From a virus (taxonomy: Duplodnaviria; Heunggongvirae; Uroviricota; Caudoviricetes): DNA of 10,266 nucleotides. The DNA lies in IMG/VR virus record IMGVR_UViG_3300028991_000027, positions 1 through 10,266 of that record; one strand, 5' to 3'. The first letter of the stretch is position 1, and each line of letters begins with the position of its first letter. The notes under the pieces were generated by a model. It was not told where the DNA came from and searched no databases. It was given only the letters and a program-made list of their open reading frames with translations. Shown here piece by piece: positions 3,646 through 10,043 of the stretch. The translations under genes were made by a program, and so were the position numbers.

Positions 3646-3990
3646 CTATAATAATTTCAGAGTTTTTACATCCAGTTCAACACTGTTCAGGTCTTTATCA
3701 AGTTCCCCCTCAATTATTACCTTGTCTTTCGGAGAAACATTCTGCCCGGCCCATACACTTTTATCGATATCCGTGACAATGGTTCCGCTACTGTCGCGAA
3801 ACTCATAACGATCATCACCCAATTTTTTAACGATGTGCCCTTCAAGGATAACCCATGCCTCGTCCTTCTGTTCTTTTGCCTGCACTACTGTTGTTGAACG
3901 CTCTGCTTCAGACCCCAGAAAACCTCCCTGTTGTGCAAAAACGCCAAAAGACACGCAGGAAAAAAGGGCTGCGATTAATACTTTTTTCAT
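3646..3990 (-). CDS. YgiW/YdeI-family (BOF) OB-fold periplasmic protein with signal peptide (114 aa)
   Basis: Start taken at ATG 3990 (MKKVLIAALFSCVSFGVFAQQGGF...), preceded by GAGGA; the ORF-track N-terminal extension is not supported. QGGF, DDRYEFRDSSGTIVTDID and GELDKDLNSVELDVK match the YgiW/YdeI pattern as recalled. Flanked by its own terminator. Confidence 0.8.
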   Translation of the reverse strand: MKKVLIAALFSCVSFGVFAQQGGFLGSEAERSTTVVQAKEQKDEAWVILEGHIVKKLGDDRYEFRDSSGTIVTDIDKSVWAGQNVSPKDKVIIEGELDKDLNSVELDVKTLKLL

Positions 3991-4078
3991 TATCGTCCTC
4001 TTCAAGAAATTAACATGAACACTTGCATTGCAGCATATAAAATGCGGGTGCGTTGAGGATGCCTGACACATCAGAGGT

Positions 4079-4107: not shown

Positions 4108-4263
4108 TTACTTCTCAGATTCGTAGTCTACGAAGACAGCGACCTCCGTCTGGCCGGTTCGGATTCGTACCTCGCAGAGGTCTTTCCTCGTTACCAGTGC
4201 CGTCACTATGACGGTTAAACAGATGACGATCAGGGCGATTAACATCGCCTTTTGCTGCTTCAT
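4108..4263 (-). CDS. hok: Hok/Gef-family type I toxin (51 aa membrane peptide)
   Basis: Translated by hand from the minus strand: MKQQKAMLIALIVICLTVIVTALVTRKDLCEVRIRTGQTEVAVFVDYESEK. It is shorter than the ORF-track cutoff. Hydrophobic N-terminus and the TRKDLCEV...GQTEVA core match the Hok family. Confidence 0.9.
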   Translation of the reverse strand: MKQQKAMLIALIVICLTVIVTALVTRKDLCEVRIRTGQTEVAVFVDYESEK

Positions 4264-4321
4264 AGTCTGCTTCTCCTTGACCTTTCGGTCCGTAAGAGGC
4301 TAACCTACGTTTGTGAAGCAT
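4115..4321 (-). CDS. mok: mok-like overlapping reading frame (68 aa) upstream of and overlapping hok
   Basis: ORF 4115..4321 begins with ATG 58 nt upstream of hok and overlaps it in another frame, as mok does in hok/sok loci. The protein itself is low-complexity; the call is positional. Confidence 0.4.
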   Translation of the reverse strand: MLHKRRLASYGPKGQGEADYEAAKGDVNRPDRHLFNRHSDGTGNEERPLRGTNPNRPDGGRCLRRLRI

Positions 4322-4380
4322 AGATTGGGCCTCAGATTAATGTTAAGCGTCTTGCAGGACGCGTAATGTTAACTGGGGCT
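4290..4380 (+). ncRNA. sok: possible sok-like antisense RNA region (position inferred, boundaries not defined)
   Basis: In hok/sok loci the antisense RNA overlaps the mok start on the opposite strand. Here I find only a weak plus-strand promoter candidate (TTGACC 4277-4282, poor -10) and a small hairpin GCGTC-ttgcag-GACGC at 4347-4362. It may be degenerate. Confidence 0.2.
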
Positions 4381-4439
4381 TTTCTCTGTCTGCCTTACGG
4401 CGGCATGCCCGAGGCAGACAGCCTCAGGCACCCGCAGCA

Positions 4440-4636: not shown

Positions 4637-4924
4637 ATGGGTCACGTCTATTTTGACACATTAAAATTTGCCGAAGCACTGGAAAAAGCTGGCATGCCAG
4701 CTGAACAGGCGCGCGCCATTTCCTCCGCAATAAAAGATGCCCATGAGGCAATTGAAGTTGCAACTAAAAATGACCTTCACTACGCAAGCTCAGAACTTAA
4801 GCGCGATATTCTGTCAATTAATGAGAAAATTGACCACCTCATATTTCAAGTAACTTTTCGGTTAGGGGTAATAATTTCTATATGTATAGTAGTTGTATTT
4901 GCCATAATTAAAATGAATATGTAA
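4637..4924 (+). CDS. small coiled-coil protein with C-terminal transmembrane helix (DUF1640-like, 95 aa)
   Basis: Complete ORF with a good SD. Protein MGHVYFDTLKFAEALEKAGMPAEQARAISSAIKDAHEA... ends in the hydrophobic LGVIISICIVVVFAIIKM. Opposite strand to all neighbours, with its own terminator. Family name is from memory. Confidence 0.65.
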   Translation: MGHVYFDTLKFAEALEKAGMPAEQARAISSAIKDAHEAIEVATKNDLHYASSELKRDILSINEKIDHLIFQVTFRLGVIISICIVVVFAIIKMNM

Positions 4925-4937
4925 CAACCAGCCATAT

Positions 4938-4976
4938 AACGGGCTGATATTTATTATATCAGCCCGTTGTCTTTTT
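4938..4976 (+). terminator. rho-independent terminator after the DUF1640-like gene
   Basis: AACGGGCTGATAT-ttatt-ATATCAGCCCGTT followed by GTCTTTTT. The minus-strand copy lacks a U-tract. Confidence 0.7.
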
Positions 4977-5000
4977 AAATAAGACAAGGCGTAACAGTTG

Positions 5001-5456
5001 TCAAAGAAATATTAATTGCTTCATTCTGCATGACATTACCGCCCTTTCTGTCGCCCTCATGATATATTTAAGGTGTAGACACGCCTCCGCCATTCTGATA
5101 ATCGGGTCTTCTGAAGTCATCTTTTCTGGCGAATCGCAGTCAGCACCACATTCAGTAATGCGTTCATAATCAAAACGAGCGGTGATTTTATGTGCACCAA
5201 TCATTTGCGTAAGCGCATCTGTCAACTCTGCAATGCGCTTATCTTTGGCTTCCAACTCGCCCGGCAGCACCAGTGCTACCTTTAGATTAAAGGTAGCAAT
5301 GAAGTCCGCGTTATTTTTCAGAATATGGTGCACAATAAGTACACCATTGAGTTTTACCTTGTAACCTCGTGCGCCACAATGCGGTCTATATGAGCTCCAG
5401 TCTCCCCCACGTTGCTTTTTCTGAAGCGTCACGCATCTTCCGGTAATTAATTTCAA
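5001..5456 (-). CDS. hypothetical protein (up to 151 aa); last gene of the minus-strand operon before the moron island
   Basis: ORF 5001..5456. The start is a TTG overlapping the DUF4406 stop (TTGA), with AGGAGA 10 nt upstream; the first in-frame ATG is far downstream, so the true start is uncertain. Six Cys and an R-x6-H near the C-terminus (RMAEACLH). No family recognised. Confidence 0.5.
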   Translation of the reverse strand: MKLITGRCVTLQKKQRGGDWSSYRPHCGARGYKVKLNGVLIVHHILKNNADFIATFNLKVALVLPGELEAKDKRIAELTDALTQMIGAHKITARFDYERITECGADCDSPEKMTSEDPIIRMAEACLHLKYIMRATERAVMSCRMKQLIFL

Positions 5457-5752
5457 TCACTGGTTGTCTCCTGGAAAATAACTGCATGCCCCAATTTCTC
5501 CGCCAGTGCCAGCTCTGCCTTAGCGCCCGCTGACCGCTGCCAGCCTTTCAGCATGTAAATCGCATCCACACAACGAATCATTGCCATGCAAATATCCATG
5601 TAATGTGGCTGAGTCAGCCCGTCCGGAAGTACTGCCGGGTTTAAAACGGTATGCCCTTCCCGTTTCAGCGCTTCTTCCGCCTTGTGAAACGCATCACGGT
5701 TGAAATTTTCATATCCCGTCATCGGACCAGCGATATAAATTCTCACCCTCAC
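5453..5752 (-). CDS. DUF4406-family protein (nucleoside 2-deoxyribosyltransferase-like fold, 99 aa)
   Basis: GTG start preceded by AGGAGG at 8 nt. N-terminal RIYIAGPMTGYENFN...VLNP matches the remembered DUF4406 signature. Confidence 0.7.
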   Translation of the reverse strand: MRVRIYIAGPMTGYENFNRDAFHKAEEALKREGHTVLNPAVLPDGLTQPHYMDICMAMIRCVDAIYMLKGWQRSAGAKAELALAEKLGHAVIFQETTSD

Positions 5753-6003
5753 TCCATCACCTCCTGAAAATTACCCTGACAGAACGCCAGTACACGCTGC
5801 ATGACTTCGCTATTTCGGCACTCACAGCAAATTATGTTCTTATGCCTGTCATAGCGGCGTATTTCTCCGTCTGGTAACTTTCGAATCAATGTCTGGTCAG
5901 TTGTTTTCTCCGGTGTCTTACGCCATACGCGATACACCTGTTCAGATGCAAAAACACCGTATTTACCGGACATGTATAAATCGCCACAAGCCAGTACATC
6001 CAC
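5749..6003 (-). CDS. hypothetical ORF, possibly the C-terminal part of a frameshifted gene whose N-terminus is ORF 5886..6143
   Basis: ORF track. Its stop overlaps the DUF4406 GTG start (GTGA), but neither the GTG at 6003 nor the ATG at 5973 has a recognisable SD, and it overlaps ORF 5886..6158 by about 118 nt in another frame. Confidence 0.3.
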   Translation of the reverse strand: MDVLACGDLYMSGKYGVFASEQVYRVWRKTPEKTTDQTLIRKLPDGEIRRYDRHKNIICCECRNSEVMQRVLAFCQGNFQEVME

Positions 6004-6143
6004 AAGGCAACGTCTGACTGAATGCCAGCCTGTCCCGTCGCTCTCTCCAGTTGTGATATCGTCATGCGTTCATTTTTGCGTACCAACCCGATAATTCGGG
6101 CCTTCAGTTCTTCACGCTGTTCGTGTGTAAAAGGTTTCGCCAT
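5886..6143 (-). CDS. small hypothetical protein with HTH-like N-terminus (85 aa from ATG 6143)
   Basis: ATG at 6143 is preceded by GGAGG and follows the upstream stop by 15 nt. N-terminus MAKPFTHEQREELKARIIGLVRKNERMTISQLERATGQ looks like real protein; the C-terminal 40 aa are W/Y/C/H-rich and resemble out-of-frame translation. Confidence 0.4.
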   Translation of the reverse strand: MAKPFTHEQREELKARIIGLVRKNERMTISQLERATGQAGIQSDVALWMYWLVAIYTCPVNTVFLHLNRCIAYGVRHRRKQLTRH

Positions 6144-6158
6144 AAGCGCCTCCGGCAA

Positions 6159-6884
6159 TCACTTTTCCGACACAATACGACCGGATGAATCGACAATCTG
6201 CCGAACAATATCCCGGTGCTTGTTCAACTCCCGCAACGCGGCACAGACTCGTTCCCACTTCTGGACATCACTTTTCGCCCGGCGCAGCTCGCGGTTAGCC
6301 ACATGCAGCGATGGTAGAATCAGGTCATCTGCTTTCGTTTCGGTGACCGATGGCTGTAACTTCACAATGTCTTCCACGATTTCTGTTTTCATTTCTTCCT
6401 GTGTCGTCGTTTCCTGGACTGGTAACGCAACACCTGCTGGCTGAGGAAAGGCTTTACCATCGGTTTCCGCTACGGATGCCGCTTCCGGCTCTGCCGGTAA
6501 ATCAGCGCCCGGTATGCAGTAACGAAATTTACCGCCCTGATTCACGCGAATCAGACGCCCTTTGCTGATTGCCATTGCCAGCGATGAATTCGCCCGGCGG
6601 GAGGTAATTCCGAACATCAGTGCCAGTTCATCCGCCGTTTGTGGGCCATGTTGTTCAATCGCCTCTGTCAGCATTTGCGCTGTCACTTTCGGTACCGGTG
6701 ACACCGGTTCACTTTCACCAGCCTGAGTCAGCCACCACATCGACCCCTTGTTATCCGCTTCACCGCGGCGCTTCAGTTTCCACAGTTCGTTGACCGCCTC
6801 TTCACGGCTGATTCCAAGGCGCGATGCCACTACCTGTGAAGAGGCTTTTTTCAGTGCTTTCAGTGCGTCAAATACGGTTTCCAT
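6159..6884 (-). CDS. phage protein with two N-terminal winged-helix-like domains, acidic linker and C-terminal coiled coil (241 aa from ATG 6884)
   Basis: ORF 6159..6902; the ATG at 6884 with GGAGG upstream is preferred over the TTG at 6902. Two HTH-like segments ([27 protein letters not shown] and [28 protein letters not shown]). Sits directly after the DnaC-like gene. Function unknown. Confidence 0.6.
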
Positions 6885-6905
6885 TAAAACGTCCTCCGAC
6901 AAAAA

Positions 6906-7652
6906 TTACTTCACAACCCTCTGATTGCTGACATTTGGACGCCAGCTATCCCAGTTAAACGTCACCCATCGACCACCGTTCATGGTCATGCGGTCCATAA
7001 TCCTCTCACCGAGAAGCGTACTCATTGCGGCATGATTCAGGTTTGTTAACATCCCGACACTGCACAGTGATGCTGTCCGGCGATCAATTATCTGGTGCAA
7101 TACCACCTGCTCGTTTTTCGTCTCACGCTGAACGCCTATTTCATCCAGGACCAGCAAATCAACCCCGCAAAGCTCCTGTAAAAATTTTTCCCCGGACTGG
7201 CCGTTGTCGTAGCTGTCATGCAACACACTCATGACGTCAGACACGGTGACGATAATCACGCTGCTCCCCTTCGCCATCAGCCGGTTGCCCATCGCCGCTG
7301 CAAGGTGATTTTTCCCGGTGCCGGTTTTACCGCTGAACACAAAATTCGTGCACCCGGTCATCAGTTCGTCAGCGATGGATTTTGCCTGGCTCAGCGCGTG
7401 TTTTTGCCCGTCGTTCTGCACCTGATAATTCGCAAACGAGCATTTGCTGTGCAGAGGCTGGATGCCCGAACGATTCAGGATTTTTTCCACCCGCAACTGG
7501 CGATTCTGGCGGTTAATCTCCTCGCTGCGTTTTCGTCCTTCAGCAAGCTGCCATTCCCGCCACTCCTCCACCGTCCGGTACGGTGGAACCGCCCCCTGTG
7601 GTGCAAGTCTGCGAATACGTTCAAGAACCCCGGCTGCCGCAATGTTTTTCAT
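6906..7652 (-). CDS. DnaC-family helicase loader (phage replication protein P analogue, 248 aa)
   Basis: Walker A FVFSGKTGTGKNHLAAA, Walker B DLLVLDEIGVQ, and a C-terminus (MLTNLNHAAMSTLLGERIMDRM...FNWDSWRP) close to E. coli DnaC as recalled. ATG at 7652. Confidence 0.9.
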   Translation of the reverse strand: MKNIAAAGVLERIRRLAPQGAVPPYRTVEEWREWQLAEGRKRSEEINRQNRQLRVEKILNRSGIQPLHSKCSFANYQVQNDGQKHALSQAKSIADELMTGCTNFVFSGKTGTGKNHLAAAMGNRLMAKGSSVIIVTVSDVMSVLHDSYDNGQSGEKFLQELCGVDLLVLDEIGVQRETKNEQVVLHQIIDRRTASLCSVGMLTNLNHAAMSTLLGERIMDRMTMNGGRWVTFNWDSWRPNVSNQRVVK

Positions 7653-7658
7653 GCCACG

Positions 7659-8627
7659 TCACCCCCTGAATCCAGGCGGTATTTCAGTGTCCGGTTCAGA
7701 AATGTGATTCACGCAACGCTGCGCGGGCGAACGCCCCAGGCGGATAACCAGTTCATCCCATTTTTCCCGGAGTTTTGCCGGACTCATGATGTTTTTTACC
7801 CAGAACGAATCCCGCTGGACACGCCCAAACATTTCACAAATCTGCCGGTGACTACGTCCATCCAGCATACGCATCATGCGCACATCATTCGCCCAGGTCG
7901 TCCAGTTAGGTTCTCGGGGGCGTGACACCTCACCATCATCACTGGCGGCCTGTTCATACAACGCCACAACCCGTCCCCAAATCCACTGCGCACAGGCGAC
8001 ATCCTCACGGGTACCCCACTGTCGCTTCGGTACATTCCAGGTATGCGCATCCGGGTGTTTCTCCAGAAATCGCTCAACTGGTGATGATTGTTTTTCGTCC
8101 GGCAGTGAAACGTCCGGACAAGAAGATCTTTTATCTGACGGATCAGGTTTTAATACTGACGGATCGGGGTCAATCATCGCCCCCCTAATCGGCAGTTTTT
8201 TATCAACCGTTGATCCATCAAAATTTGACGGGTCAACCGTTGAGGGGTCAATATTTGACGGGTCAACTGTTAACGGGTCATTTTTTGCCGGGCTAATTTT
8301 TCTTTTCGGTTTATATGACTCACGCGCCGCCGCCGCAGCTGCTTCGAGTTTTTCCACATTAAGCCGATAGATATTGCTTACATTACGCCCACCGACCTTA
8401 CGCTCTTCCTTCGTCAGCCAGCCCTCTTTCGCCAGTTCTGCAATAGCCGATTTCACGGTGGATTCACTTCTTGCACCGATCTGACGCCGGATAGTTTCAA
8501 TGGCAGGCCATGACACGCCCTCGTCATTGCTGTAGTCTGCTAGACGGGCCATCACTGCCACCCGGGATAAGATCATGCCGGTGAAGGCGCATCCTTCCCA
8601 GACAAGACCATGAAGCTTGCTGCTCAT
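7659..8627 (-). CDS. replication initiator, lambda O-like (N-terminal winged-helix domain, repeat-encoded linker, C-terminal domain; 322 aa from ATG 8627)
   Basis: ORF 7659..8642; the ATG at 8627 preceded by GGGGG is preferred over the GTG at 8642. It lies immediately upstream of the DnaC-like gene, and the iteron repeats fall inside its linker (DPLTVDPSNIDPSTVDPSNFDGSTVD), as in lambda O. Confidence 0.75.
   Translation of the reverse strand: MSSKLHGLVWEGCAFTGMILSRVAVMARLADYSNDEGVSWPAIETIRRQIGARSESTVKSAIAELAKEGWLTKEERKVGGRNVSNIYRLNVEKLEAAAAAARESYKPKRKISPAKNDPLTVDPSNIDPSTVDPSNFDGSTVDKKLPIRGAMIDPDPSVLKPDPSDKRSSCPDVSLPDEKQSSPVERFLEKHPDAHTWNVPKRQWGTREDVACAQWIWGRVVALYEQAASDDGEVSRPREPNWTTWANDVRMMRMLDGRSHRQICEMFGRVQRDSFWVKNIMSPAKLREKWDELVIRLGRSPAQRCVNHISEPDTEIPPGFRG
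8137..8320. repeat. iteron-like direct repeats plus AT-rich tract: putative origin of replication inside the O-like gene
   Basis: A 20-bp repeat TTTGACGGGTCAAC(C/T)GTT(G/A)A at 8224-8243 and 8254-8273. The GGGTCA core recurs at about 15-bp spacing (around 8166, 8230, 8244, 8260, 8275), with GACGGATCA variants at 8137 and 8158. An AT-rich stretch follows at 8281-8320. Confidence 0.6.
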
Positions 8628-8649
8628 AAAACCCCCGAACACCGTGCTT

Positions 8650-9075
8650 TTAGTGCATCACCACAGCATTCCCTGCCGGGCCGCCGCGATTCATCTGGTC
8701 ATACAAAACAACCGCTGACGCAACAAAATCGTCGACATCCTTCACCAGCCGATCCCGCCGTTCGACGATCTCACGGTAATACTCAGAACTGTGGCTGCGC
8801 ATACGGGCCACCAGCAAAGGCGGCATCGCCTTTTCGATCGCTGGTAACAGAGCCTGAATTTTTTCAACAGCATCAGGGGTGTCTTTATCCAACCAACGGA
8901 AAATTTTCTGGGTATTACGGGCCAGGGCTTCCGGATGACTGTCGTCGTACAGTTCCGGGAACGTCATCCCCAGCTCGAAATACGCTTTGGTAATTTTCGC
9001 AGCCGGTACTTTTTCGCCGTCCGGATGCGCCCAGGCATTCATCGCCATGCGGATGTGCTCATGCTTGATTTTCAT
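8650..9075 (-). CDS. YdaT-family protein (141 aa), second gene of the cro-side operon
   Basis: Complete ORF beginning MKIKHEHI...; ATGA overlap with the cro-like stop. Family assignment is from remembered similarity to Rac YdaT. Confidence 0.65.
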   Translation of the reverse strand: MKIKHEHIRMAMNAWAHPDGEKVPAAKITKAYFELGMTFPELYDDSHPEALARNTQKIFRWLDKDTPDAVEKIQALLPAIEKAMPPLLVARMRSHSSEYYREIVERRDRLVKDVDDFVASAVVLYDQMNRGGPAGNAVVMH

Positions 9076-9299
9076 GAATCACTCTTCCTTTCGCTCTGAG
9101 TGGTATCCTTCTTTTTGTAAAGCTCTGGGTTCAAAGATAATTTTCCCTTGGAGTATGCAGCAGCTTCCGCAGCTCTCCCTTTCGGAACTATTTCACCGGG
9201 GCGCTTACGCCACATGTAAATAGCTTCGCGGGTTATCCCATAAAAATCAGCGACCCTCTGAACAGAGCCAAAAAACTGAACAAGTTCATCAACTCGCAT
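9072..9299 (-). CDS. Cro-like HTH regulator, YdaS family (75 aa)
   Basis: ATG at 9299 preceded by AGGAGG. HTH segment VADFYGITREAIYMWRKR. Divergent from the CI-like gene across the operator region. Confidence 0.75.
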   Translation of the reverse strand: MRVDELVQFFGSVQRVADFYGITREAIYMWRKRPGEIVPKGRAAEAAAYSKGKLSLNPELYKKKDTTQSERKSDS

Positions 9300-9395: not shown

Positions 9396-10043
9396 ATGAT
9401 GGAAAGCCTTGGCATCAGGCTTAAGAAACTCAGAAAAGATAAGGGACTCACCCAAGTAGAACTGGGTAAGCTTTCAGGCGTGACCGGGGTTACTATAGGG
9501 TACTGGGAGAAAGATCTAAACGAACCCGGCAGCAAAGCTCTAAGTAAGTTAGCCCAAGCATTAGGAACTACTGAGTCCTATCTCCTGTATGGAGTATCGT
9601 CTCCTGAACTATCTTTTGTGCAGAGCAATCCAGGCACCAAGATCCCCTACTTTTCGTGGGGTGACGCGATTTCTTTCCTAATCTTAGAAGGAGAGAAAAC
9701 AATGGGAAATGTCGATAGGATCACCACATTCTTTGATGTAGTGGAAGGTGATTTTGCCGTTTCAATGCCTGATGACACTATGCATAACCCCTCAGGGTCG
9801 CCAAGTATCCCAGTTGGTGCCACTGTGATCCTAAGACCAGGAGAAAGTTATAAAAATGGCAGTATCGTCGCTGTAATAGTTCCAGATCCTCTTACAAATG
9901 AACCGTCTATGACTATAAAAAAATTAGTTATTGATGGAAAACTTGTGTATTTAAGCCCTCTCAATCCGCGCTATCAATCATCCTTGCTTACGCCAGAGTG
10001 TAAAATTGTTGCCGTAGCAAAAGGTGTACAGTTCAACCTATAA
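9396..10043 (+). CDS. CI-type prophage repressor (N-terminal HTH, C-terminal S24 LexA-like peptidase domain, 215 aa)
   Basis: HTH GLTQVELGKLSGVTGVTIGYWEKD. C-terminal domain contains candidate Ser and Lys motifs (GDFAVSM, IKKLVIDGKLVYLSPLNPRY). Divergent from the cro-like gene and flanked by operator-like sites on both sides. Confidence 0.85.
   Translation: MMESLGIRLKKLRKDKGLTQVELGKLSGVTGVTIGYWEKDLNEPGSKALSKLAQALGTTESYLLYGVSSPELSFVQSNPGTKIPYFSWGDAISFLILEGEKTMGNVDRITTFFDVVEGDFAVSMPDDTMHNPSGSPSIPVGATVILRPGESYKNGSIVAVIVPDPLTNEPSMTIKKLVIDGKLVYLSPLNPRYQSSLLTPECKIVAVAKGVQFNL

What the first reader, a model, noticed from the sequence alone, without database searches (positions are those of the whole stretch)
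5453..5752. DUF4406 protein with a nucleoside 2-deoxyribosyltransferase-like fold embedded in the early operon
The IYIAGPM...N...VLNP signature places this 99-aa protein in the DUF4406 group, whose fold is related to nucleoside deoxyribosyltransferases and other nucleotide-processing enzymes. In a phage early operon such a protein could act on nucleotides, NAD-derived molecules or signalling nucleotides. That role is speculative; the family call is from memory.
Basis: inference. Interest (0 to 1): 0.5.

Follow-up and report, generated by a model that had tools for sequence, protein, structure and literature searches.

The report
Small phage nucleotide-cleaving enzyme, function untested
This is a real, well-conserved 99-residue prophage gene of the catalogued DUF4406 family. 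It has the fold and most catalytic residues of enzymes that cut the base off deoxynucleotides, it is very common and already annotated, and its function has never been tested.

Summary
**Observation: confirmed.** The ORF lies on the minus strand at 5453-5752 (GTG start, 99 aa) and carries the quoted motifs. It matches Pfam DUF4406 at E=7e-37. An identical protein is already annotated in E. coli RefSeq. dN/dS among E. coli alleles is 0.08.

**Fold claim: supported.**
- The AlphaFold model has pLDDT 90.
- A profile of 29 diverse phage homologues reaches solved superfamily structures by sequence (E=1e-5).

**Active site.**
- Tyr6 and the nucleophile Glu80 are kept.
- Ser74 sits where monophosphate N-glycosidases have their phosphate-binding Ser. 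Nucleoside transferases have Asp there.
- The general-acid Asp is replaced by Cys55.
- The C-terminal extension that completes the pocket in DNPH1 is absent.

**Most likely function.** A minimal deoxynucleoside 5'-monophosphate N-glycosidase (or dR5P transferase). It is made from the delayed-early pR operon by translational coupling and edits the nucleotide pool.

**Anti-defence idea.** I found no support for it: no PADLOC hit and no known anti-defence family among the commonest neighbour families.

**Recurrent partners elsewhere.** DNA methylases, and once a MazG pyrophosphatase.

**Verdict.** Ordinary, already catalogued, biochemically untested.

The parts
5453..5752 (-). DUF4406 (PF14359) gene, 99 aa. 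Key residues: Tyr6, Cys55, Ser74, Glu80.
   Evidence: ORF list and sequence. Pfam E=6.7e-37. Structure model and fold matches. Residue mapping onto solved NDT-superfamily chains. dN/dS 0.08.
5760..5764 (-). GGAGG Shine-Dalgarno-like sequence, 7 nt upstream of the GTG start
   Evidence: Read directly from the minus-strand sequence.
5749..5752 (-). GTGA overlap: the stop of the upstream DUF977 ORF overlaps the start of the DUF4406 ORF (translational coupling)
   Evidence: The same 4-nt overlap with the upstream gene is seen in all 72 E. coli prophage loci that have an upstream ORF.
5453..5456 (-). TTGA overlap: the DUF4406 stop overlaps the TTG start of the downstream ead/Ea22-like ORF (5001-5456)
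   Evidence: RefSeq annotates the same boundaries in UTAK-6.
5749..6158 (-). Upstream DUF977 gene, split into two ORFs here (5886-6158 and 5749-6003) by a 1-nt deletion between 6033 and 6032
   Evidence: Pfam DUF977 matches profile positions 49-134 only. Alignment to the intact UTAK-6 gene.

Best explanation
The gene encodes a minimal member of the nucleoside 2-deoxyribosyltransferase (NDT) superfamily, with four strands and three helices. It is made during lytic growth from the pR delayed-early transcript, by translational coupling to the gene upstream.

The most likely chemistry is that of the monophosphate N-glycosidases DNPH1, MilB, BcmB and phage DmtZ:
1. Glu80, held in place by Tyr6, attacks C1' of a 2'-deoxynucleoside 5'-monophosphate.
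2. Ser74 holds the 5'-phosphate.
3. The base leaves and a covalent deoxyribose-5-phosphate-enzyme intermediate forms.
4. The intermediate is resolved by water (hydrolysis) or by another base (transfer).

The likely biological role is editing or sanitising the deoxynucleotide pool while the phage replicates.

**Shown:** family, fold, conservation and position of Tyr6/Ser74/Glu80, operon position, purifying selection.
**Inferred:** the substrate class, the dimeric state, and the biological role.

The usual general-acid Asp is Cys55 here. The C-terminal helical extension of DNPH1 is absent. So the exact substrate and leaving-group chemistry may differ from the characterised enzymes.
For: **Family.** PF14359 E=6.7e-37 and PHROG 355 E=7e-48.

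**Fold.** The model has pLDDT 89.8.
- Foldseek: 37 of the top 39 PDB hits are NDT, MilB, BcmB or DNPH1, with query-normalised TM 0.58-0.78 (0.66-0.78 for all but two); the other two are E. faecalis 7m5h chains deposited as 'conserved protein', which one search lists as a nucleoside 2-deoxyribosyltransferase.

**Sequence link to solved structures.** A profile of 29 diverse phage homologues (A7) hits T. brucei NDT at E=1.3e-5, BcmB CMP N-glycosidase at 4.7e-4 and 6evs at 1.5e-3. The printed alignments place:
- Tyr6 on the catalytic Tyr;
- Glu80 on the nucleophile Glu (E88 of the Chroococcidiopsis enzyme);
- Ser74 on the Ser of BcmB, where the transferases have Asp.

**What those residues do in characterised enzymes.** DNPH1 S98 and MilB S97 coordinate the 5'-phosphate. 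The triad is Y24/D80/E104. Tyr versus Phe at the first position selects deoxyribose versus ribose (PMC10603095).

**Conservation.** Across 146 representatives of 50%-identity clusters: Ser74 142/142, Glu80 140/142, Gly76 140/142, Tyr6 119/140 with Phe in 20. All are invariant in the diverse set.

**Precedent.** Phage DmtZ of the same superfamily is a dAMP N-hydrolase and dR5P transferase (PMC12884076).

**Link to dNTP/dNMP metabolism.**
- The protein matches the DUF4406-like part of PHROG 12019, 'MazG-like pyrophosphatase', profile positions 28-114 of 241.
- BFVD fold matches include proteins named dATP/dGTP diphosphohydrolase.
- In Mycobacterium phage Gaia a PF14359 gene overlaps a MazG gene by 4 nt.

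**Selection.** dN/dS is 0.08.
Against: - No member of PF14359 has been assayed. Three full-text papers mention DUF4406; I opened one and it only lists the domain in a genome annotation. No paper mentions PF14359 or DUF1937.
- The general-acid Asp (DNPH1 D80, Chroococcidiopsis NDT D62) is Cys55 here. Among representatives that position is Cys in 100 of 146, Asp in 20 and Thr in 9. There is no consistent compensating acid. PDB holds DNPH1 D80N with its substrate 5hmdUMP still bound.
- The protein ends just after the fourth strand. It therefore lacks the helical extension that in DNPH1 supplies S128' to the neighbouring subunit's phosphate site.
- Destroying dNMPs during replication looks costly unless the substrate is a minor or modified nucleotide.
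- The gene context in this prophage has no nucleotide-metabolism partner.
- Direct alignment of a narrow profile or single sequence to DNPH1 or L. leichmannii NDT was not significant.
Confidence: 0.5

Rival explanations
1. It is a true nucleoside 2-deoxyribosyltransferase, as many phage annotations say. It would swap bases between free deoxynucleosides for salvage.
For: PHROG 355 carries that name. The best Foldseek and sequence-profile hits are transferases: T. brucei, Chroococcidiopsis and B. psychrosaccharolyticus. Some PF14359 members also touch PF05014, below its threshold. T. brucei NDT also lacks the Asp and has Asn (PMC12884076).
Against: Where the transferases have Asp, aligned with the phosphate-binding Ser of the monophosphate hydrolases, this family has an invariant Ser. 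That is the state seen in the monophosphate hydrolases BcmB, MilB and DNPH1. The C-terminal region is absent; in NDT it completes the neighbouring active site (my own knowledge of the L. leichmannii structure, not tested here). The phage 'NDT' labels are inherited by homology, and the same family is also labelled deaminase, hydrolase and MazG.
Confidence: 0.12
2. It is a counter-defence protein. It would cleave or sequester an NAD-derived or other nucleotide immune signal, or a toxic nucleotide made by a defence system, using the TIR-like side of this fold.
Against: No PADLOC match. No known anti-defence family among the 25 commonest neighbour PHROGs on either side in about 60 diverse loci. 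Sequence and fold are closer to NDT/MilB/DNPH1 than to TIR. Tyr6 is the state that excludes a 2'-OH in MilB/DNPH1 logic, whereas NAD-derived signals are ribonucleotides. No experimental report.
Confidence: 0.12
3. Its role is tied to phage DNA methylation. For example, it could remove methylated deoxynucleotides released from degraded DNA, or remove a methylation by-product.
For: An N6/N4 DNA methylase is the translationally coupled neighbour of PF14359 genes in unrelated phages: Island3 gp55/56, LESphi3, Nadeem 65/66. A methylase motif is found at position -1 in 5 of 56 distinct loci against 6 of 475 other nearby ORFs (Fisher p=0.003). Methylase PHROGs are among the commonest upstream neighbours. 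DNPH1 itself clears a modified nucleotide, hmdUMP.
Against: Only a minority of loci show the link. In this window the neighbours are DUF977 and an ead-like gene. Orphan methylases are common in phage early regions anyway. The motif screen is crude.
Confidence: 0.08
4. It is a non-catalytic nucleotide-binding or regulatory protein that has kept the fold but lost turnover.
For: The general-acid Asp is lost (Cys55) and the second-subunit phosphate contact is missing.
Against: The nucleophile Glu, its partner Tyr and the Ser-x-Gly motif are close to invariant across thousands of clusters. That is hard to explain without chemistry at that site.
Confidence: 0.08

Closest known systems
DNPH1/Rcl (2'-deoxynucleoside 5'-phosphate N-hydrolase; PDB 4fyh, 8os9)
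   Different: Asp80 is Cys55 here. There is no E55/H56 element, no shielding loop and no C-terminal helical extension carrying S128'. The protein is 99 aa against 174 aa. Pairwise sequence similarity is not significant.
MilB / BcmB / BlsM CMP N-glycosidases (PDB 4ohr, 4jen, 5vto)
   Different: Those enzymes have Phe at the Tyr6 position and act on ribonucleotides. They keep the Asp and are about 60 residues longer.
Phage DmtZ (dAMP N-hydrolase / deoxyribose-5-phosphate transferase of Z-genome actinophages; PMC12884076)
   Same: A phage-encoded, small NDT-superfamily enzyme acting on a dNMP. It has a Tyr/Glu catalytic pair and a non-Asp third residue (Asn77), and it works downstream of a dNTP pyrophosphatase.
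   Different: DmtZ is not matched by Pfam models according to its authors. It belongs to a PurZ0/dZ pathway that this prophage lacks. I did not compare the two sequences directly.
PA1492 / DUF1937 (PDB 1t1j)
   Different: It is also uncharacterised, so it adds nothing about function.
Class I/II nucleoside 2-deoxyribosyltransferases (PF05014; PDB 1f8x, 2a0k, 8qc0)
   Same: Fold, Tyr and nucleophile Glu. The best sequence-profile hit is 2a0k at E=1.3e-5.
   Different: These enzymes have Asp where this protein has Ser74. The C-terminal region is absent here. PF05014 is not matched by this protein.

Membership tests
Pfam PF14359 (DUF4406) | Score above the curated gathering threshold over the whole domain | tested here: met
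   126.2 bits against a cut-off of 22, E=6.7e-37, residues 4-93 on profile positions 2-91 of 91.
NDT superfamily (N-(deoxy)ribosyltransferase-like fold) | Flavodoxin-like alpha/beta fold that superposes on NDT/DNPH1/MilB | tested here: met
NDT superfamily | Nucleophile Glu at the start of the helix after the third strand | tested here: met
   Glu80 aligns with the catalytic Glu of T. brucei NDT, BcmB and Chroococcidiopsis NDT (E88). It is kept in 140 of 142 representatives.
NDT superfamily | Tyr (or Phe in ribo-specific enzymes) in strand 1 that positions the Glu | tested here: met
   Tyr6 aligns with the catalytic Tyr; BcmB has Phe there. Representatives: Tyr 119, Phe 20.
NDT superfamily (canonical Tyr-Asp-Glu triad) | General-acid Asp on the second helix (DNPH1 D80, Chroococcidiopsis NDT D62) | tested here: not met
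   The aligned position is Cys55. Among representatives it is Cys 100, Asp 20 and Thr 9 of 146. Asn occupies it in T. brucei NDT and DmtZ, so the position varies within the superfamily.
(d)NMP N-glycosidases (DNPH1, MilB, BcmB) | Ser six residues before the nucleophile Glu, binding the 5'-phosphate; Asp in nucleoside transferases | tested here: met
   Ser74 is kept in 142 of 142 representatives. It aligns with the BcmB Ser and opposite the transferase Asp. Its role is taken from PMC10603095.
(d)NMP N-glycosidases (DNPH1) | Second phosphate contact from the neighbouring subunit's C-terminal helical extension (S128'), or an Arg as in MilB R23 | tested here: not met
   The protein ends at residue 99, just after strand 4. 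The position aligned to DNPH1 R30 is Thr12, from a low-scoring alignment. Invariant Asn18-Arg19 might substitute; that is inference.
(d)NMP N-glycosidases / NDTs | Measured N-glycosidic bond cleavage or transfer | not testable with these tools
   No biochemical report for any PF14359 member was found.
NDT superfamily | Homodimer in which two subunits build each active site | not tested
   Only a monomer was modelled.
Known anti-phage-defence or counter-defence families | Match to a catalogued defence model, or consistent adjacency to known anti-defence genes | tested here: not met
   No PADLOC hit. The 25 commonest neighbour PHROGs on each side in about 60 diverse loci contain none. Anti-defence catalogues themselves were not searched.

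The most novel reading that the evidence does not exclude
DUF4406 proteins could be a large, unrecognised class of phage enzymes that cut the base off a non-canonical nucleotide without needing a general acid. Candidate substrates are a nucleotide immune signal, a toxic nucleotide made by a host defence, or a methylated deoxynucleotide. If so, the family would be a counter-defence or pool-sanitising device, not a salvage enzyme.
Probability: 0.12. Interest if true: 0.7.

Novelty: already known. Interest (0 to 1): 0.3.

Why it matters
The family is very large: 18,276 clusters at 50% identity. It occurs in phages of Proteobacteria, Actinobacteria and gut metagenomes, and in about a quarter of complete E. 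coli genomes. No member has a tested function.

This analysis gives a concrete biochemical hypothesis: Glu80-dependent base release from a 2'-deoxynucleoside 5'-monophosphate, with an unusual Cys in place of the acid. Showing what the enzyme cleaves would annotate thousands of phage genes. It would also show whether temperate phages routinely edit the host nucleotide pool. For this particular window it changes nothing, because the gene is ordinary and already labelled.

Tried and rejected
- **Single-sequence and narrow-profile searches of PDB** found nothing relevant. hhalign or hmmsearch of enterobacterial-only or 267-sequence profiles against single DNPH1 and L. leichmannii NDT sequences gave non-significant scores. 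Their residue pairings agreed with the later significant result. Only the profile of 29 diverse phage homologues reached solved structures.
- **Domain fusions among 38 long representatives:** the extra regions matched no Pfam family, so they told me nothing. Several 'MazG', 'deoxycytidylate deaminase' and 'hydrolase' labels on actinophage homologues are mislabels of stand-alone PF14359 proteins.
- **The search for related loci with the broad alignment** failed for lack of a conserved stretch. With the narrow alignment it returned only E. coli prophages.
- **A fixed functional partner:** rejected. The upstream gene is DUF977 in 43 E. coli loci and an unrelated small HTH protein in 29. Neighbours in diverse phages fall into 92 upstream and 77 downstream clusters.
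- **A compensating acid at residue 53 for the Asp-to-Cys change:** rejected. It is D/E in 51 Cys55 representatives and something else in 49.
- **'Not a gene':** rejected by dN/dS of 0.08.
- **Literature:** searches for DUF4406, PF14359 and DUF1937 found no functional study. PMC3585086 could not be read.

Full report
**What is there**

The window is the early-right region of a Rac-type lambdoid prophage of E. coli.
- A 1.3-kb stretch around the finding (window 4900-6200) is 99.9% identical to strain UTAK-6.
- On the minus strand the gene order is: cro-like (9072-9299), YdaT/cII-like (8650-9075), O-like (7659-8642), DnaC-like (6906-7652), DUF1627 (6159-6902), DUF977, the target, ead/Ea22-like (5001-5456).
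- After some inserted genes come DUF968/HNH, RusA and antiterminator Q (1009-1830).
- A cI-like repressor is divergent at 9396-10043.

The target ORF occupies exactly 5453-5752, on the minus strand, and encodes 99 aa from a GTG start.
- Its start overlaps the upstream stop (GTGA), and a GGAGG lies 7 nt upstream.
- Its stop overlaps the TTG start of the next gene.
- No promoter-like site lies on the minus strand between 5001 and 7000, and the only terminator-like site there is a weak 6-bp stem at 5790-5776.

So 'embedded in the early operon' is correct. In lambda terms it is a delayed-early gene of the nin-like region.

**Is it real**

Yes.
- Pfam DUF4406 matches end to end at E=6.7e-37.
- The identical protein is in RefSeq under that name.
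- The gene is in 1,333 of 5,426 complete E. coli genomes, with up to four copies and 122 places on plasmids.
- Forty distinct E. coli prophage alleles give a median dN/dS of 0.08.
- An exhaustive profile search finds 18,276 clusters at 50% identity.
- tblastn finds it in 527 phage records infecting Arthrobacter, Vibrio, Gordonia, Mycobacterium, Pseudomonas and others. Distant examples are confirmed PF14359 members.

**Fold**

An AlphaFold2 model built on 30 homologues has mean pLDDT 89.8. It shows four strands and three helices.
- In Foldseek, 37 of the top 39 PDB hits are deoxyribosyltransferases, MilB, BcmB or DNPH1, with query-normalised TM 0.58-0.78 (0.66-0.78 for all but two). The other two are E. 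faecalis 7m5h chains, deposited as 'conserved protein' and listed as a nucleoside 2-deoxyribosyltransferase.

**Pocket residues**

Narrow profiles could not be aligned significantly to DNPH1 or L. leichmannii NDT. I then collected diverse homologues from viral contigs and aligned 29 of them, at 31-65% identity to the query. That profile hits solved superfamily chains by sequence:
- T. brucei NDT, E=1.3e-5
- BcmB, E=4.7e-4
- 6evs, E=1.5e-3
- Chroococcidiopsis NDT, E=0.02
- 1t1j, E=0.05

The printed alignments give a residue map:

| Residue here | Equivalent in solved structures |
|---|---|
| Tyr6 | Catalytic Tyr; Phe in ribo-specific BcmB |
| Position 55 (Cys) | General-acid Asp: D62 in the Chroococcidiopsis enzyme, Asp in BcmB, Asn in T. 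brucei |
| Ser74 | Ser in BcmB; Asp in the transferases |
| Glu80 | Nucleophile Glu |

According to PMC10603095:
- The DNPH1 triad is Y24/D80/E104.
- S98 and S128' hold the phosphate, and MilB keeps S97.
- Tyr versus Phe decides deoxyribose versus ribose.

Conservation in this family:
- Ser74 is kept in 142 of 142 cluster representatives.
- Glu80 is kept in 140 of 142.
- Tyr6 is Tyr in 119 of 140, with Phe in 20.
- Position 55 is Cys in 100, Asp in 20 and Thr in 9 of 146. In the wider set it is C/D/S/A/G.
- Residue 53 does not consistently compensate.
- Other near-invariant residues have no counterpart in the characterised enzymes: Asn18-Arg19, Phe22, the NPAxLPxG loop, Tyr51 and Trp71.
- The chain stops just after strand 4, so the C-terminal extension that reaches the neighbouring active site in DNPH1 is absent.

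**Most likely mechanism**

The pattern is Tyr, plus Ser-x-Gly-x-x-x-Glu. That is the pattern of the deoxynucleoside-monophosphate N-glycosidases, not of the nucleoside transferases. I therefore favour Glu80-mediated cleavage of the N-glycosidic bond of a 2'-deoxynucleoside 5'-monophosphate, through a covalent deoxyribose-5-phosphate intermediate. Hydrolysis or base transfer would follow.

A phage precedent exists. DmtZ is an NDT-superfamily enzyme of Z-genome actinophages. It hydrolyses dAMP and transfers dR5P to 2-aminoadenine downstream of a dATP pyrophosphatase, and it has Asn at the acid position (PMC12884076).

Links to dNTP pyrophosphatases are also seen for DUF4406:
- A match to the DUF4406-like part of a 241-column PHROG named MazG-like pyrophosphatase.
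- BFVD fold matches named dATP/dGTP diphosphohydrolase.
- A 4-nt overlap between a PF14359 gene and a MazG gene in Mycobacterium phage Gaia.

The substrate class, the oligomeric state and the biological role (pool editing during replication) are inferences. The Asp-to-Cys change and the missing extension are real departures, and they keep my confidence near 0.5.

**Context and the anti-defence idea**

- In 72 E. coli prophage loci the upstream gene is DUF977 in 43 and an unrelated small HTH protein in 29. The 4-nt overlap is present in every case.
- The downstream gene is usually an ead/Ea22 variant, but it falls into 16 clusters.
- In 57 distinct, diverse phage loci, the two ORFs on either side fall into 92 upstream and 77 downstream clusters.
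- The commonest annotated neighbour families are DNA methyltransferases and anti-repressors upstream. Downstream they are regulators, HNH and NinG-type nucleases.
- No known anti-defence family appears among the 25 commonest on either side, and PADLOC gives no hit.
- One recurrent feature: an N6/N4 DNA methylase directly upstream and translationally coupled, in 5 of 56 loci against 6 of 475 other ORFs (p=0.003). It was confirmed by annotation or Pfam in Island3, LESphi3 and Nadeem.

The methylase link is a lead, not an explanation. This window shows no such neighbour.

**Comparison and novelty**

The protein is a bona fide PF14359 member and an NDT-superfamily member by fold, Tyr and Glu. It fails the canonical-triad Asp test and lacks the second phosphate contact of DNPH1. 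I therefore do not file it as a DNPH1, MilB or NDT orthologue, although it most likely works like the monophosphate N-glycosidases.

The additions here are the residue map, the Ser-versus-Asp argument for a phosphorylated substrate, the Cys55 departure, and the methylase and MazG associations.

Interest is modest. It is a very common but untested phage enzyme family with a clear assay to run.

Noticed in passing
window 5749-6158 (-), deletion between 6032 and 6033: The DUF977 gene just upstream is split into two ORFs by a 1-nt deletion relative to E. coli UTAK-6, where it is a single 131-aa gene. That could weaken translational coupling into the DUF4406 gene, or it could be a sequencing error.
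   Followed up: yes
window 4108-4433 (-): A hok/mok toxin pair (4108-4263 and 4115-4321) with an Rfam sok antitoxin RNA match at 4261-4433 (103.9 bits). This is a type I toxin-antitoxin module inside the nin-like region.
   Followed up: partly
window 8203-8301: A tandem array of about five 15-nt units inside the O-like replication gene. It encodes the repeated DPSxxD peptide and is probably the iterons of the prophage replication origin.
   Followed up: partly
window 3646-4071 (-) and 4637-4970 (+): Two likely morons. One is a YgiW/BOF OB-fold protein with an N-terminal hydrophobic, signal-like segment. The other is an opposite-strand 95-aa ORF followed by a 15-bp-stem hairpin at 4936-4970.
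   Followed up: no
L008 2354-3297; L004 2009-3537; L217 1501-2594; L098, L135, L211: In unrelated phages (Mycobacterium Island3, Pseudomonas LESphi3, Gordonia Nadeem and metagenomic contigs) a PF14359 gene overlaps an N6/N4 DNA methylase gene by 4 nt. The methylase motif is enriched at the -1 position: 5 of 56 against 6 of 475, p=0.003.
   Followed up: partly
L218 1504-2138 (Mycobacterium phage Gaia gp125/gp126): A PF14359 gene overlaps a MazG pyrophosphohydrolase gene by 4 nt. This looks like the unfused form of the MazG-plus-DUF4406 architectures suggested by PHROG 12019 and by the BFVD matches.
   Followed up: partly
L004 3001-3537; L094; L135; L216 856-1824: Some homologues carry extra regions that match no Pfam family. 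Examples are a Cys-rich C-terminal tail in Pseudomonas LESphi3-type and some metagenomic proteins, and a 215-aa N-terminal region in Mycobacterium phage MalagasyRose gp52.
   Followed up: partly
phage records (e.g. L002 gene 27, L003 gene 62, L004 P31_11): Stand-alone PF14359 proteins are variously annotated as MazG-like pyrophosphatase, deoxycytidylate deaminase, hydrolase or nucleoside deoxyribosyltransferase. Where I ran Pfam on such proteins (L004 P31_11, Nadeem gene 65) only DUF4406-type domains matched; L002 gene 27 and L003 gene 62 were judged from their short length alone. These labels should not be used as evidence of function.
   Followed up: yes
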